Source: a virus (Duplodnaviria > Heunggongvirae > Uroviricota > Caudoviricetes). From it: a DNA stretch of 15,825 bases. Of the stretch, positions 1 to 3,760 are shown one piece after another. The position numbers were made by a program, and so were the translations under genes. Under the pieces are notes generated by a model, which was given only the letters and a program-made list of their open reading frames with translations, did not search any database and was not told where the DNA came from. The DNA is taken from the IMG/VR virus record IMGVR_UViG_2565956713_000002. One strand, written 5' to 3'. Every line of letters starts with the position of its first letter. Position 1 is the stretch's first letter.

Positions 1-1224
1 ATGGCTGGCACAAACAAACTGAGCGACAAAAAGCTAAAAGCATTGCTGGGTTCTGAGCGTGAAGCGCCGATCATGATTGCCGATGGTGAGGGGCTAAGCG
101 TTAAGGTCTCGAAGCAAGGTAACGTTAGCTGGGTATTTTCATACCGGTTGGGAGGAAGGGGTAGCAAACTCGAACGTTTAACGCTTGGCCGTTACCCTGA
201 TATGCCGCTAAAACTTGCGCGAGAAAAGCGGGAACAGTGTCGCCAGTGGCTGGCTGGTGGGCTTGATCCGAAAACTGAGATTGAGCTGAGCACAGAAGAA
301 ACGCTTAAGCCTGTAACGGTTAAAGACGCCCTGGAATATTGGTTGGTGAATTACGCCAGGAGAAAGCGCAGTGATGAGGCGTTGGTGAGGGCGCAGCTAC
401 GCAAGCATATTTACCCGCGCCTTGGTCGTTATCCGATCACCAGATGTGAAACCCGCCATTGGGTGGCCTGTTTTGACGAAATAAACCAGACTAAACCCAT
501 GACCGCCGGCCGCATGTTCCAGATTTCTAAACAGGCGTTACGTTTCTGCAAGGTTCGCCGTTATGCTGCCAGTGATGCTCTGGCCTTTCTCACCATTCAG
601 GATGTAGGCCAGCCATCTGGTCAACGTGATCGCGTATTGTCAGATAGCGAGCTGGCTGATGTGTGGCGCTGTACAGATAGCGATGATCAGCAGCCGTATT
701 ATTCACGTCTGCTCAAAATGCTGGTGCTTTTTGGTGCGCGAACGATGGAAGTTCGCCTTTCTCGATGGTCAGAGTGGGATTTTACATCGTGGATTTGGAC
801 TGTACCGAAAGAGCATAGCAAAACCAGAGAGAAAATCGTGAGGTCGATACCTGAAGCTATACGCCCGTGGCTGGAAGAGTTAAAGCGCGAGACAGGGAAA
901 ACAGGTTTGTTACTGGGCGAAGATCGTACCCGTCAGGCTGTATCATTGAAAGGGCGCAGGCTTTTTAAAGATTTTCACCATAACGAGCCGTGGACACTTC
1001 ACGATCTGCGTCGGACGTTTTCTACGGGGCTAAACAATATGGGTATAGCACCGCATATAGTCGAGCTGCTGTTGGGCCATGCCTTGCCGGGAGTTATGGC
1101 GATTTATAACCGTAGTCTTTACTTACCGGAGAAGCTGGACGCGCTGAACAAGTGGTATGACCGCTTAGAACTTCTCGCGGGTAATCACTCTAATATCGTT
1201 ATTTTAAAGGCTGGTGAAAAATGA
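1..1224 (+). CDS. int: Tyrosine recombinase, P4-type integrase with N-terminal arm-binding domain
   Basis: C-terminal catalytic motif HDLRRTFSTGLNNMGIAPHIVELLLGHALPGVMAIYNRSLY (R..H..Y pattern); N-terminal LSDKKLKAL...ADGEGLSVKV...WVFSYR matches the arm-binding domain of P4-like integrases. The ATG sits at base 1, so the true start could be at or upstream of the window edge. Confidence 0.9.
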   Translation: MAGTNKLSDKKLKALLGSEREAPIMIADGEGLSVKVSKQGNVSWVFSYRLGGRGSKLERLTLGRYPDMPLKLAREKREQCRQWLAGGLDPKTEIELSTEETLKPVTVKDALEYWLVNYARRKRSDEALVRAQLRKHIYPRLGRYPITRCETRHWVACFDEINQTKPMTAGRMFQISKQALRFCKVRRYAASDALAFLTIQDVGQPSGQRDRVLSDSELADVWRCTDSDDQQPYYSRLLKMLVLFGARTMEVRLSRWSEWDFTSWIWTVPKEHSKTREKIVRSIPEAIRPWLEELKRETGKTGLLLGEDRTRQAVSLKGRRLFKDFHHNEPWTLHDLRRTFSTGLNNMGIAPHIVELLLGHALPGVMAIYNRSLYLPEKLDALNKWYDRLELLAGNHSNIVILKAGEK

Positions 1225-2024
1225 GAATTAGCCACAAAAAAGATTTGCCAACATGGTTTGATTTAGATAACTACACTCAATTTATTGGCATGTCAGATAA
1301 AGACTTATTTTATCAGTTGGTTGTTAGATATGACATGCTTGAAAACTTCTATCGATATGGCGGGTCTTTTTATAATGAACCTCTTACAAATAACGATGAA
1401 GTAGGAAGGATACTTGGAAATGGCGCGGTCGCTAATGCGATTGATAGAGCTACGTACTTCTATGATGCGTTTAAACTTCCTATTAAAAGAGAAGGTGTTT
1501 TGTCTGGTGGGGTTGCGTTACGACCAATGTCCATTGAAGACTTTATTTATATGAAAGATGCTGTAGATAATTATATGGAAAATAATTTTACGGGAACGGC
1601 TGAAAATTTAGTTTACCATTCATTTACAAGTGTTAGCTCATTTTTGGAACCAAATGACCTTTTTATTAAAGTTGATTTGTCACGCCCGGATGATTTATTG
1701 ATTGATGTGTTTAAAAAAAACCTCAAGAATTGGCGTGAGGAATTAAAAATAAAAGAAAAGGAAAAAACATACCAGTCATGGGAAACAATTAAAAAAAAGG
1801 TATACGATTATTCACTTTTCCCCGTAGTTGATTTGATGATCTGGGCTAAATCTCGCGGGGCATGCGTCACCAATGGCGTGCTTGCTGTGGCTGTGTTTCC
1901 GAACGGAGAGTATGACTCAACGCAGATAGCGCAAACCGTAAAGCCAAATATAGAAAAAATCTTCTCAATTTCTTCTATAGAAAAAATCAGGTCAGAACTT
2001 CAGGATAGAAAAATTCTTCCTTAA
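1221..2024 (+). CDS. Hypothetical protein, AT-rich cargo gene (267 aa), no recognisable motif
   Basis: Uninterrupted 267-codon ORF whose start overlaps the int stop (ATGA). Visibly AT-rich and Lys/Asn/Ile/Tyr-rich compared with flanking genes; contains two A8 tracts. Function not recognised. Confidence 0.6.
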   Translation: MRISHKKDLPTWFDLDNYTQFIGMSDKDLFYQLVVRYDMLENFYRYGGSFYNEPLTNNDEVGRILGNGAVANAIDRATYFYDAFKLPIKREGVLSGGVALRPMSIEDFIYMKDAVDNYMENNFTGTAENLVYHSFTSVSSFLEPNDLFIKVDLSRPDDLLIDVFKKNLKNWREELKIKEKEKTYQSWETIKKKVYDYSLFPVVDLMIWAKSRGACVTNGVLAVAVFPNGEYDSTQIAQTVKPNIEKIFSISSIEKIRSELQDRKILP

Positions 2025-2119
2025 TCTTGGTGGTCAAAACAATTTAATTTTCGTCTAGTGTGACATCCAATCACAAGGATAACAATAGCCCCCACAAACT
2101 TAGAAACAGTGGAGGCAAC

Positions 2120-2404
2120 ATGCAAATTATCACCTTTACCCCGCCAAATCCTGAACAACGCCGCACCATTCTGGAGGAGTACGGCTTCAAGTTCGATCGC
2201 CGAATCCGCGAAGATGAATGCAGCGAGATCACCAGTCTTTCTCGTTCGAGCCGCTGGAAGATGGAACAGCAGGGGCGCTTCCCGCCGCGCTGTCACTTTG
2301 GCCGCAACAGCTGTGCCTGGCTTCTTTCGGATGTGCTCTGGTGGGTTCGTAATCCGCCTGCCGTGGAAAACGTCAATAACCCGTACAGCCGCAAATCTGC
2401 TTAA
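2120..2404 (+). CDS. alpA: AlpA-family phage transcriptional regulator (excisionase-like HTH)
   Basis: Motif ITSLSRSSRWKMEQQGRFPPRCHFGRNSCAWLLSDVLWWV matches the AlpA pattern (LSRSTiyr...G.FP.P...G.r...W...ev..W). GGAGG lies 5 nt upstream of the ATG at 2120. The ORF-track start at 2060 was trimmed to this RBS-supported ATG. Confidence 0.8.
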   Translation: MQIITFTPPNPEQRRTILEEYGFKFDRRIREDECSEITSLSRSSRWKMEQQGRFPPRCHFGRNSCAWLLSDVLWWVRNPPAVENVNNPYSRKSA

Positions 2405-2424: not shown

Positions 2425-3108
2425 ATGAAAAATATTAATGCCCTTAACGGGCAGGGATTCGCTCACCCTGTTGCCAGTAAAAGCGATATTAGCGTGCAGC
2501 TTAAACAGCTTCCTGCCGTCGAATTTCACGGGCAACGCGTGGTGACGTTCGCAATGATTGATACCGCGCACCAGCGACCTAAAGACACGGCTAAAAAGAC
2601 TTTTCAGCGTAATCGCACTCGCTTCATTGATGGTGAGGACTTTTTTATTGTCGGCGCGTCAGAGGTCGAATGGGGAGGGGCTGGATATTTAGACAGGGGC
2701 ATTAAACGCCCTGGCAAAAAAATGAACAGTCCGATACGTGGCCGCGTAACACTGATTACGGAATCAGGCTATCTGCTGCTGACCAAACCGTTTAACGATG
2801 ATTTGGCCTGGCAGGTACAGCGCCAGCTCGTGAAAACTTATTTCCGTTGCCCGGAGTTTGTCACTTTCCATCATGTGGATCTGCCGTCGCTCGAAGAACT
2901 GATCGCCATGCCGGTTACTGATGCGCAAAACGCCGTGACTCGTGCGGACAAGCATTCTAAGCAGTTTCATGGCTCACAGGGCAGTAATGGAATGAATCTC
3001 CGCAAGAAGGAACTCAAAGTTCTGCGTCCGGCGGTACGGCTGGTAGATGCGATGGGGCAGATTGATTTCGATAAATATGAGTGGGAGGCGGCACATGATC
3101 GCGCATAA
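2425..3108 (+). CDS. ORF6N/KilA-N-like domain phage regulatory protein
   Basis: N-terminal segment VEFHGQRVVTFAMIDTAHQRPKDTAKKTFQRNRTRFIDGEDFFIV resembles the ORF6N DNA-binding domain consensus. C-terminal half unrecognised. Confidence 0.5.
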   Translation: MKNINALNGQGFAHPVASKSDISVQLKQLPAVEFHGQRVVTFAMIDTAHQRPKDTAKKTFQRNRTRFIDGEDFFIVGASEVEWGGAGYLDRGIKRPGKKMNSPIRGRVTLITESGYLLLTKPFNDDLAWQVQRQLVKTYFRCPEFVTFHHVDLPSLEELIAMPVTDAQNAVTRADKHSKQFHGSQGSNGMNLRKKELKVLRPAVRLVDAMGQIDFDKYEWEAAHDRA

Positions 3109-3112
3109 AACA

Positions 3113-3132
3113 AAGGCGACCGGGGGCGGTCG
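3113..3132. terminator. GC-rich hairpin GGCGACCG-GGGG-CGGTCGCC between convergent genes; T-rich tract on the minus-strand side
   Basis: Inverted repeat read directly. On the minus strand it is followed by TTTGTTTTAT, so it could terminate the RHH transcript; it is weak as a + strand terminator. Confidence 0.35.
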
Positions 3133-3225
3133 CCAATGGGAAAACACTAAACATAAGCCCGAACATCATAGTGATTTGCTGGCTGGTGGGCAATGTGATC
3201 AGTGTGCTGGCTTGCTGGTGGGCTA

Positions 3226-3417
3226 TCAACCTTTTGGTTCTATACCGCGCCGCTTTAGTTCTGCCCTGGCTAATTCTTTAAACCAGTTACCAAGGGTTAG
3301 ACCGTCAGAAGTTGCCGCCTCATTTACTTGTTGGCGTAGCTCTTTACTGATTCTGATTTGGAAGGTTGGAGACCATCCCTCACCGCGTGGCGATTTATCG
3401 CGCTTTAATGTTGACAT
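3226..3417 (-). CDS. Ribbon-helix-helix (Arc/CopG-like) DNA-binding protein, putative repressor
   Basis: FQIRISKELRQQVNEAATSDGLTLGNWFKELARAELKRRG fits the beta-strand then two helices RHH pattern. Its start codon overlaps the -35 of the divergent promoter. Confidence 0.6.
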   Translation of the reverse strand: MSTLKRDKSPRGEGWSPTFQIRISKELRQQVNEAATSDGLTLGNWFKELARAELKRRGIEPKG

Positions 3418-3458
3418 GTACGTACGTAACTCCTATTATCATTGCTGTTACGTACGTA
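3411..3458 (+). promoter_or_regulatory. Consensus sigma70 promoter TTGACA-17-TATTAT with two identical palindromic operators TACGTACGTA (3419..3428 and 3449..3458)
   Basis: TTGACA at 3411..3416, 17-nt spacer, TATTAT at 3434..3439. Two perfect 10-bp palindromes sit 30 bp centre to centre, one in the spacer and one just downstream of the -10. Confidence 0.6.
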
Positions 3459-3556
3459 CAATATCAGTAGGTACAGTAAAAAGCAAAGCCCCGCAAGTGT
3501 CGTTACCACTCGCAGGGCTTCTAACCACCAACGATAACGAGAGTATCGAGGTAGCT

Positions 3557-3760
3557 ATGTTAAATCATACCACACACCCGCAAGGGCGGGACTCGCACAA
3601 CCTGAATAAATATATCTGGCGTTTTATCGCCCTGAGCACGGCACAACCGCGCGTGATTCACATCGTGGCCACCAGCGAACAGGAAGCACGCCAGCAATCC
3701 CCGGCTGGCTGCGTGATGGTATTCGCCGCCCGTATTCGTCAGGGGGTGTTCCATGCCTGA
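3557..3760 (+). CDS. Icd-like small protein (host cell division inhibitor family of P4-like elements)
   Basis: 67-aa ORF downstream of the operator-controlled promoter. Sequence YIWRFIALSTAQPR...VMVFAARI resembles Icd-like proteins as recalled from memory, not searched. Confidence 0.45.
   Translation: MLNHTTHPQGRDSHNLNKYIWRFIALSTAQPRVIHIVATSEQEARQQSPAGCVMVFAARIRQGVFHA

What the first reader, a model, noticed from the sequence alone, without database searches (positions are those of the whole stretch)
1221..2024. AT-rich orphan gene fused to the 3' end of int, a candidate accessory or anti-phage cargo
The 267-aa ORF is strikingly AT-rich and Lys/Asn/Ile-rich against ~50% GC neighbours, so it looks recently acquired. 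Its start overlaps the int stop (ATGA), placing it between int and alpA. In P4-like satellites the int-proximal region is a documented hotspot for anti-phage systems, and PICI-type islands are also known to carry such cargo, though I am not certain this exact junction is their hotspot. I recognise no domain in the protein. It carries two A8 homopolymer tracts (about 1724..1731 and 1790..1797), which are possible slippage or phase-variation sites. The last ~90 codons are noticeably more GC-rich than the rest, hinting at a mosaic origin.
Basis: partly seen in the sequence, partly recalled or inferred. Interest (0 to 1): 0.85.

Follow-up and report, generated by a model that had tools for sequence, protein, structure and literature searches.

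The report
DUF6387 gene at PICI int–alpA junction
The AT-rich gene after the integrase is not an orphan: it belongs to a large uncharacterised family (DUF6387) that sits just upstream of the alpA master-switch gene in many phage satellites and genomic islands, so it looks more like part of the island's own control module than bolted-on anti-phage cargo, though its function is still unknown.

Summary
The ORF (1221..2024, 267 aa, ATGA overlap with int, 36% GC against about 50%) is real.

- **Not an orphan.** It is a full-length Pfam DUF6387 protein, identical to RefSeq WP_016236857.1. The family has about 1,300 clusters at 50% identity.
- **Host element.** The window is an E. coli capsid-forming PICI inserted between gcd and hpt.
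- **Conserved position.** In every context examined, DUF6387 lies directly upstream of a small AlpA-type gene. This holds from Enterobacterales to Acinetobacter-type relatives, and in EARL islands and a Serratia island.
- **AT-richness is a family trait.** It is seen in all loci, so it is not evidence of recent acquisition.
- **GC-rich "mosaic" patch.** It encodes the family's most conserved motif.
- **A8 tracts.** They are Lys codons at chance frequency and show no length variation.
- **Selection.** The gene is under purifying selection but exists as deep allele types swapped between near-identical backbones.
- **Slot contents.** Related E. coli islands always carry exactly one AT-rich gene here, either DUF6387 or one of two unrelated kinds, and never a recognised defence system.
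- **Structure.** A confident AlphaFold model is all-alpha and matches no solved or viral structure.

My best guess, at low confidence, is a type-specific protein that gates the AlpA switch. An anti-phage role remains possible.

The parts
1..1224 (+). Tyrosine integrase (int), with Arm-DNA-binding, central and catalytic domains
   Evidence: Pfam PF13356, PF22022 and PF00589. RefSeq annotates it as a tyrosine-type recombinase. Recombination breakpoints with related islands fall near 985 and between about 1187 and 1275.
1221..2024 (+). DUF6387 family gene (267 aa), the finding. It is AT-rich and its start overlaps the int stop (ATGA at 1221-1224).
1713..1720 (+). First A8 run (codons ...AAA AAA AAC, Lys-Lys-Asn)
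   Evidence: Exact position. It is interrupted by an A-to-G substitution (K165E) in L006 and L019, with no length change. It is expected by chance.
1791..1798 (+). Second A8 run (Lys-Lys-Lys codons)
   Evidence: It is unchanged in all copies examined.
1851..1940 (+). Local GC-rich patch (GC 0.57) encoding the most conserved motif of the family
   Evidence: Composition.
2025..2080 (+). Part of the DUF6387-alpA spacer that is specific to the cassette; it is swapped together with the slot gene
   Evidence: Homology to islands with another slot gene stops at about 1187-1275 and resumes at 2081-2115. No consensus sigma-70 promoter or terminator was found.
2088..2116 (+). Conserved hairpin immediately before the alpA start codon. 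Its 3' arm contains the GGAGG Shine-Dalgarno (2111-2115).
   Evidence: MFE -10.2 kcal/mol, z = -3.2, 0 of 200 shuffles as stable. It is present in all loci, ends 0-6 nt from the start codon, and shows compensatory changes such as CCTCCAC/GTGGAGG against CCCTCAC/GTGAGGG against GCTCTCG/CGAGAGC. No Rfam family matches.
2120..2404 (+). alpA, the AlpA-family regulator that acts as master activator of Gram-negative PICIs
   Evidence: Pfam PF05930, E = 5.3e-10. RefSeq annotation. Its role in PICIs is described in PMC6092414.

Best explanation
The gene encodes a soluble, all-alpha DUF6387 protein. I read it as a standing component of the int/alpA control module of AlpA-regulated satellites and genomic islands, not as incidental cargo.

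Shown:
- It is made from the int transcript, with its start overlapping the int stop.
- It always sits directly upstream of the small AlpA-type regulator that heads the replication and packaging operon.
- It is under purifying selection.
- It exists as deeply diverged types that are exchanged between otherwise near-identical islands, together with about 60-90 nt of the spacer in front of alpA.

Inferred:
- It is expressed in the resident state and acts through protein-protein or nucleic-acid contacts. The conserved N-terminal 45 residues and the conserved basic C-terminal 110 residues would form the constant face. The variable acidic middle would be the type-specific face.
- Through these contacts it gates the AlpA switch, either holding excision and induction off or tuning which signal, such as which helper phage, turns it on.
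- By position, size and allelic diversity it would then be the Gram-negative counterpart of the Stl/Rpr master regulator of Gram-positive PICIs.

The biochemical activity is unknown.
For: 1. **Conserved neighbourhood in three architectures.**
   - int-DUF6387-alpA is found in PICI and cf-PICI elements of Escherichia, Shigella, Klebsiella, Enterobacter, Serratia, Yersinia, Xenorhabdus, Edaphovirga and Tenebrionibacter.
   - It is also found in a 22%-identical relative.
   - Acinetobacter-type relatives show DUF6387, then a 70-98 aa AlpA-like gene, then a primase, with int upstream (directly in two of three loci).
   - The DUF6387-alpA pair sits at the end opposite int in ICEKp258.2/EARL islands.
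   - The order is DUF6387-alpA-int in a Serratia island.
2. **Near absence from other mobile elements.** There was 1 hit in 50,697 phage records and 1 hit in 72,556 plasmid records.
3. **A slot that is always filled, and never by a recognised defence gene.** An alpA-based sample of E. coli islands, not biased towards DUF6387, always shows exactly one AT-rich gene of 216-350 aa here. It is DUF6387 or one of two unrelated kinds, never a recognised defence system, and the slot is never empty.
4. **Selection and allele exchange.**
   - dN/dS is 0.02-0.2, like int and alpA.
   - L023 has int 94% and alpA 97% identical to the window but DUF6387 only 33%.
   - L007 against L055 gives int 87%, alpA 98% and DUF6387 39%.
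5. **The swapped segment includes the spacer in front of alpA**.
6. **An open place in PICI biology.** No repressor is known for Gram-negative PICIs, and how helper phages switch on alpA is unresolved (PMC6092414).
7. **No PADLOC hit** for three DUF6387 alleles.
Against: - The protein and its family are acidic, with median pI 5.4.
- DUF6387 type does not co-vary with AlpA type. AlpA proteins 95-98% identical are paired with 33%-identical DUF6387 alleles or with unrelated slot genes. DUF6387 therefore cannot be an obligatory specific partner of AlpA.
- Other PICI clades carry something else in this slot. EcCIMP1 has a small unrelated gene there and is still helper-inducible.
- No expression, binding or phenotype data exist.
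- Conserved position could simply reflect shared descent of one island lineage.
Confidence: 0.4

Rival explanations
1. Single-gene anti-phage or superinfection-exclusion factor carried as accessory cargo. It would be expressed with int in the resident state and would block an infecting phage by binding a phage protein. The diverged alleles would reflect an arms race.
For: - Slot content differs between closely related islands.
- Deep allele types are exchanged by recombination.
- The gene is AT-rich like many shuffled accessory genes.
- Satellites are known carriers of defence genes (PMC11364771; PMC13586616).
- Some PICIs give immunity that no known system explains (EcCIMP1).
- A variable middle region between conserved ends would suit target recognition.
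Against: - No PADLOC hit.
- No effector-like domain and no membrane segment.
- Essentially absent from phages and plasmids, where defence genes usually also travel.
- Fixed position next to alpA in unrelated island types, including conjugatively mobilised EARL islands.
- The slot holds only two or three single-gene families and never a recognised system, unlike real hotspots.
- The documented PICI and P4 hotspots are at other positions.
Confidence: 0.25
2. Accessory factor of site-specific recombination. It would be made in step with Int through translational coupling and would act with Int and/or the AlpA-type directionality factor to bias integration against excision.
For: - The 4-base ATGA overlap with int is present in 31 of 33 loci that include int.
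- In EARL islands the neighbouring AlpA homologue, SEN1998, behaves as a recombination directionality factor that binds the att regions (PMC8844411).
- The C-terminal third is basic, with pI 8.95.
Against: - The coupling is not universal. The gap is 40 nt in the P0154 locus and 148-243 nt in two of the three Acinetobacter-type loci (in the third, other genes lie between int and DUF6387).
- In EARL islands int is at the other end of the element.
- DUF6387 alleles are exchanged independently of the int type. L006 has int 60% identical but DUF6387 99.6% identical to the window.
- Related islands with other slot genes have the same integrase clade.
Confidence: 0.15
3. A conserved passenger with a host-directed or otherwise unrelated role, such as a modulator of a host protein. 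Its position would be kept only by shared ancestry of this island lineage.
For: - The fold and function are unknown.
- The neighbourhood could be inherited rather than selected.
- Many PICI accessory genes act on the host.
Against: The adjacency to the AlpA-type gene survives rearrangements that moved int and divergence down to about 22% identity. That is hard to explain without a functional link.
Confidence: 0.2

Closest known systems
Pfam PF19924 (DUF6387), RefSeq 'DUF6387 family protein'
   Same: Full-length match at E = 2.3e-29. The protein is identical to WP_016236857.1. It has the same length class and the same conserved N- and C-terminal motifs.
   Different: Nothing differs; this is what it is. 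The family has no assigned function, and only two papers in the searched library mention it, both in gene tables only.
Stl/Rpr master repressors of Gram-positive PICIs (SaPIs)
   Same: It lies next to int at the boundary with the regulator-led replication and packaging operon. It is about 250-300 aa and highly diverged between otherwise similar islands. It would occupy the place of a resident-state regulator that Gram-negative PICIs are not known to have (PMC6092414).
   Different: No helix-turn-helix or any DNA-binding fold was detected. It is co-directional with alpA rather than divergent. There is no sequence or detectable structural relation. The resemblance is positional and evolutionary only, and the repressor/sensor activity is inference.
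Defence cargo in satellite hotspots (P4 int-psu hotspot; PICI 5'/3'-end and pri-adjacent regions, such as the Tai systems)
   Same: It is a variable gene close to int in a phage satellite, and its function is unknown to the current defence catalogues.
   Different: The position is different (int-alpA, not att-int, int-psu or next to pri). The slot holds a narrow repertoire of single genes rather than many unrelated systems. The gene is tied to alpA in non-satellite islands as well, and has no homology to defence models.
Second int-alpA slot family in E. coli PICIs (L003, L064-L071 'hypothetical proteins')
   Same: It has the same slot, the same single-gene layout, a similar size (262-350 aa), the same low GC (0.34-0.40) and the same acidic pI.
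   Different: No detectable sequence or profile similarity to DUF6387 (hhalign probability 1%). Its start is not overlapped with int. It is also uncharacterised, with no Pfam or PADLOC hit.

Membership tests
Pfam DUF6387 (PF19924) | Score above the family's gathering threshold over most of the profile | tested here: met
   103.2 bits against a cut-off of 28.9; profile positions 3-249 of 258.
Pfam DUF6387 (PF19924) | Conserved family motifs: N-terminal DLP..F.L..Y...(S)D.(D)L..Q...R, and C-terminal WR...W...Y..P..DL..W...GVLAV..FP.G..D...IAQT.KP | tested here: met
   Invariant columns in the 23-sequence alignment. D204 is invariant, and F13, Y18, R36, L168, R172, L205, W208 and P227 are at least 90% conserved in 129 sequences.
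Capsid-forming PICI (host element of the gene) | [quoted passage not shown] | tested here: met
   RefSeq annotation of the identical island between gcd and hpt. Pfam hits for int, AlpA and DUF927. The layout matches that described for EcCIEDL933. Helper-dependent induction was not tested.
Known anti-phage defence systems (PADLOC-DB v2) | Significant match to a model of a known or candidate defence protein | tested here: not met
   No family at E up to 10 for this protein. None at E up to 1 for two other DUF6387 alleles or for the alternative slot genes. The library dates from 2023, and newer DefenseFinder models could not be run.
Known anti-phage defence systems | Measured protection against phage infection | not testable with these tools
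   Needs plating assays.
Satellite defence hotspot cargo | Located in a documented hotspot (P4: int to psu-delta-sid; PICI: 5' or 3' end including att-int, or next to pri) that holds many unrelated systems | tested here: not met
   Hotspot positions are taken from PMC13586616 and PMC11364771. This slot lies between int and alpA and held only three kinds of single genes in about 12 island lineages.
Stl/Rpr-type PICI master repressor | DNA-binding (HTH) domain | tested here: not met
Stl/Rpr-type PICI master repressor | Represses the island's lytic operon and is relieved by a helper-phage protein | not testable with these tools
   Needs reporter, binding and induction experiments.
Phase-variable (contingency) gene | Homopolymer tract length varies between copies and switches the reading frame | tested here: not met
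   Twelve chromosomal copies match over the full 2,500 nt at 99.8-100% identity, 11 without any indel. The A8 runs are unchanged apart from one substitution. The single frameshift is in a T4 run near 1497-1500.

The most novel reading that the evidence does not exclude
DUF6387, and in other islands the second slot family, is the missing resident-state regulator or sensor of Gram-negative PICIs and related AlpA-controlled islands. It would be a new-fold protein that keeps alpA off and is relieved by a helper-phage signal. It might act together with the conserved leader hairpin that masks the alpA ribosome-binding site or terminates read-through. Its diverged allele types would set which helper phages can induce a given island.
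Probability: 0.2. Interest if true: 0.8.

Novelty: already known. Interest (0 to 1): 0.45.

Why it matters
How Gram-negative PICIs stay silent, and how helper phages switch on alpA, has been open since these elements were described. No repressor is known (PMC6092414).

A large, uncharacterised, apparently new-fold family sits exactly at that junction in satellites and in EARL-type islands, including ICEKp258.2 of the epidemic K. pneumoniae ST258. That makes it a concrete, testable candidate for part of the switch.

If it instead proves to be an anti-phage factor, it would be a new single-gene defence family with a fold not seen in solved structures. In either case the practical correction stands: the gene is a catalogued, conserved family member. 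It is not a recently acquired orphan, and its homopolymer runs and GC patch have ordinary explanations.

Tried and rejected
- **Known domains.** PADLOC, PHROGs and NCBIfam gave nothing informative. PHROGs returned only a weak hit to an unknown-function family, phrog_23422.
- **PDB sequence profile search.** Only noise.
- **Phase variation at the A8 runs.** Rejected.
- **Mosaic origin of the 3' part.** Rejected.
- **Recent acquisition inferred from low GC.** Rejected.
- **Fast evolution as the cause of low identity.** Rejected. dN/dS is low, and DUF6387 is sometimes more conserved than int. The pattern is deep allele types plus recombination.
- **Alternative slot genes as divergent DUF6387.** Rejected by hmmsearch and hhalign.
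- **HTH impression.** I thought the N-terminus of the second family, and DUF6387 residues about 190-225, resembled an excisionase-type HTH. hhalign against AlpA does not support this, so I do not claim it.
- **Promoter and terminator scan between DUF6387 and alpA.** Nothing by consensus.
- **Rfam search of 1100-2600.** Nothing.
- **Context look-ups.** I worked around this with a third homology search.
- **Fillol-Salom 2022 Cell paper.** The paper on PICI immune systems is not in the searchable library, so its content is cited only through later papers.
Full report
**1. The observation**

The ORF is real. It runs 1221..2024 on the + strand and encodes 267 aa. Its ATG overlaps the int stop as ATGA.
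- Its GC content is 0.356, against 0.502 for int and 0.509 for the rest of the window. GC3 is 0.32 against 0.51.
- The two A8 runs lie at 1713-1720 and 1791-1798, not 1724-1731 and 1790-1797.
- The 'GC-richer last 90 codons' comes down to one 90-nt patch, 1851-1940, at GC 0.57.

**2. What the window is**

The window is identical to a chromosomal island found in 12 of 5,426 complete E. coli genomes.
- The island lies between gcd and hpt.
- Its gene order is int, DUF6387, alpA, ORF6N, icd-like, DUF4222, DUF927 primase, ssb, major capsid, prohead protease, portal, connector, HNH, TerS, TerL.
- This is the layout of a capsid-forming PICI as described for EcCIEDL933.
- IMG/VR holds the same element as a 15.8-kb 'viral' contig (L019).

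**3. The gene is not an orphan**

- It matches Pfam PF19924 (DUF6387) over its full length at E = 2.3e-29. RefSeq names it 'DUF6387 family protein', WP_016236857.1.
- A profile search of 1.84 billion cluster representatives found 1,300 family members at E ≤ 1e-3 and 452 at E ≤ 1e-10.
- Named members come from Escherichia/Shigella, Klebsiella, Enterobacter, Serratia, Yersinia, Proteus and Acinetobacter.
- The family is almost absent from phage records (1 of 50,697, a 1.8-kb fragment) and from plasmid records (1 of 72,556, itself carrying int, capsid and tail genes).
- There is no hit to PADLOC, and only a weak hit to an unknown-function PHROG.

**4.

*Low GC.*
- In every locus examined, the DUF6387 gene is 9-20 GC points below its own int and alpA. 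This covers more than 40 loci from E. coli, Klebsiella, Enterobacter, Serratia, Yersinia, Xenorhabdus, Edaphovirga, Tenebrionibacter and metagenomes.
- Low GC is therefore a stable trait of the family and not a mark of recent arrival.

*GC-rich patch.*
- It encodes GVLAVAVFPNGEYDSTQIAQTVKP, the most conserved stretch of the family and one rich in Gly, Ala, Val and Pro codons.

*A8 runs.*
- They are Lys-Lys-Asn and Lys-Lys-Lys codons. Two or more runs of A8 or longer appear in 43% of synonymous-codon permutations.
- Thirteen E. coli copies show no length change. One tract carries an A-to-G substitution in some copies.
- The single frameshifted copy (strain CFS3292) lost a T from a T4 run near 1497-1500.

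**5. Conserved position**

- In six genomes of other genera found by protein pattern search, the order is int, DUF6387, alpA with the 4-base overlap. There int is about 56% identical to the window's, but DUF6387 only 29-36%.
- The same order holds in all contexts retrieved for seven diverged homologues, including one only 22% identical.
- It also holds in 39 IMG/VR loci. Of the 33 loci that include int, 31 have the -4 overlap.
- In Acinetobacter-type relatives (365-392 aa) the order is DUF6387, then a 70-98 aa gene (weak AlpA/HTH_17 hit or none), then a primase. int lies directly upstream of DUF6387 in two of the three loci; in the third, three other genes intervene.
- Published gene tables show the DUF6387-alpA pair in two other architectures:
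  - at the end opposite int in ICEKp258.2, an EARL-family island of K. pneumoniae ST258;
  - as DUF6387-alpA-int in a Serratia island.
- The constant feature is therefore DUF6387 directly upstream of, and co-directional with, the AlpA-type regulator.

**6. Variation in the slot**

*Allele exchange.*
- L023 has int 94% and alpA 97% identical to the window, but its DUF6387 is only 33% identical.
- L006 has an int only 60% identical, at a different attachment site (yhdJ), but DUF6387 99.6% and alpA 100% identical.
- Nucleotide homology to islands with another slot gene ends at about 1187-1275 and resumes at 2081-2115. The exchanged unit is thus the gene plus about 60-90 nt of the spacer before alpA. 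A second breakpoint lies inside int near 985.

*Selection.*
- Within allele lineages dN/dS is 0.02-0.2, similar to int and alpA.
- DUF6387 is sometimes more conserved than int, for example 95% against 88% in L010/L025.
- Across lineages identity drops abruptly. L007 against L055 gives int 87%, alpA 98% and DUF6387 39%.
- The picture is of discrete, selectively maintained types shuffled by recombination, not of fast drift.

*A census not biased towards DUF6387.*
- I searched E. coli genomes with the alpA segment. It is present in 49 of 5,426.
- I then read the annotation of eight further island lineages, in addition to L003-L006.
- Every one has exactly one gene of 216-350 aa between int and alpA.
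- These genes are DUF6387, or members of a second family (L003, L064-L071), or the 216-aa L004 type.
  - The second-family members are related to each other by BLASTP and share the N-terminus P-L-R-x-Y-Y..RAA.LLGC...DL.HWA.
- All are AT-rich (GC 0.34-0.40) and acidic.
- None matches Pfam or PADLOC.
- The second family is not detectably related to DUF6387 or to AlpA.
- The slot is never empty and never holds a recognised defence system.

**7. Structure**

- With 129 family sequences, AlphaFold2 gives a confident model: mean pLDDT 91.4, pTM 0.85, 13 helices and almost no strand.
- Foldseek against BFVD gives nothing at E ≤ 0.001.
- No solved or viral structure therefore resembles it. The AlphaFold database could not be searched.
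- The protein has no membrane segment and a pI of 5.4, the same as the family median.
- Residues 1-45 and 151-255 are conserved. The C-terminal third is basic (pI 8.95) and the middle is variable and acidic.

**8. Interpretation**

*Evidence for a link to the AlpA switch.*
- The stereotyped place next to alpA, across rearrangements and very deep divergence.
- The near absence from phages and plasmids.
- The narrow repertoire of the slot.
- The co-transfer of the spacer in front of alpA.

Together these argue that the gene is functionally tied to the AlpA switch rather than being free cargo.

[quoted passage not shown] No repressor is known and the inducer was unidentified (PMC6092414).

*Working model (confidence 0.4).* The slot gene is a resident-state, type-specific gate of that switch, analogous in position, size and diversity to Stl.

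*Evidence against the model.*
- No DNA-binding fold was found.
- DUF6387 type does not co-vary with AlpA type.
- Other PICI clades have a different, small gene here and are still inducible.

*Rivals.*
- The anti-phage reading stays open (0.25). Satellites do carry novel defence genes, and allele diversity fits an arms race. However, the documented hotspots are elsewhere and nothing here positively supports defence.
- A recombination-accessory role (0.15) is suggested by the coupling to int, but the independent exchange of int and DUF6387 weakens it.

**9. Verdict**

- The 'orphan, recently acquired, phase-variable, mosaic' reading is not supported.
- The 'variable slot' reading is supported.
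- The gene is an already catalogued DUF6387 member of unknown function.
- Its interest lies in the family: it is large, has an apparently new fold, and sits at the unresolved control point of Gram-negative PICIs and EARL islands.

Noticed in passing
window 2088-2116 (alpA start codon at 2120); same place in L003-L063: A conserved hairpin ends 0-6 nt before the alpA start codon in every locus. In the window type its 3' arm contains the GGAGG ribosome-binding site. In the other alpA type it is a GC-rich stem followed by a run of 5-7 U, which looks like a terminator. Stems differ by compensatory changes (CCTCCAC/GTGGAGG, CCCTCAC/GTGAGGG, GCTCTCG/CGAGAGC, CCCTTGT/ACAAGGG). z-scores are -3.2 to -5.8, and no Rfam family matches. 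It could insulate alpA from int read-through or act as an attenuator. Helper-phage-driven read-through is a speculative possibility.
   Followed up: partly
L003:4320-5108, L064:2467-3396, L065:2628-3446, L068:2390-3331, L069:2516-3340, L070:2313-3353, L071:2332-3384: A second uncharacterised protein family (262-350 aa, AT-rich, acidic) occupies the same int-alpA slot in related E. coli PICIs. It has a conserved N-terminus, P-L-R-x-Y-Y..RAA.LLGC...DL.HWA, and matches nothing in Pfam or PADLOC. To my eye the N-terminus looks like an excisionase-type helix-turn-helix, but hhalign against AlpA did not support this.
   Followed up: partly
window 985-1275 and 2081-2115: These are recurrent recombination breakpoints. 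Many related islands share only int's last 240 nt or so (from 985) and the alpA segment (from about 2081) with the window. One island, L006 at the yhdJ site, carries the window's 985-2490 block at 97% identity behind a different int N-terminal part. Int C-terminus, slot gene and alpA can therefore move as a block between attachment-site specificities.
   Followed up: partly
window 2059-2075: A short inverted repeat, TGTGA-N7-TCACA, lies in the cassette-specific part of the spacer upstream of the alpA hairpin. The arms are only 5 bp, so it may be chance. It was not tested.
   Followed up: no
window 3047-3760 vs 3497-3760: The long ORF 3047..3760 (237 aa) carries the Icd-like domain only at its C-terminus (residues 189-232). 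RefSeq annotates a short 87-aa icd-like gene there instead, plus a small gene on the opposite strand at about 3226-3417. The true start of this gene is uncertain.
   Followed up: no
L002 (E. coli CFS3292), equivalent to window ~1497-1500: One natural copy of the gene is split by a single-T deletion in a T4 run and is annotated as two DUF6387 fragments. The gene can therefore be lost without loss of the island.
   Followed up: yes
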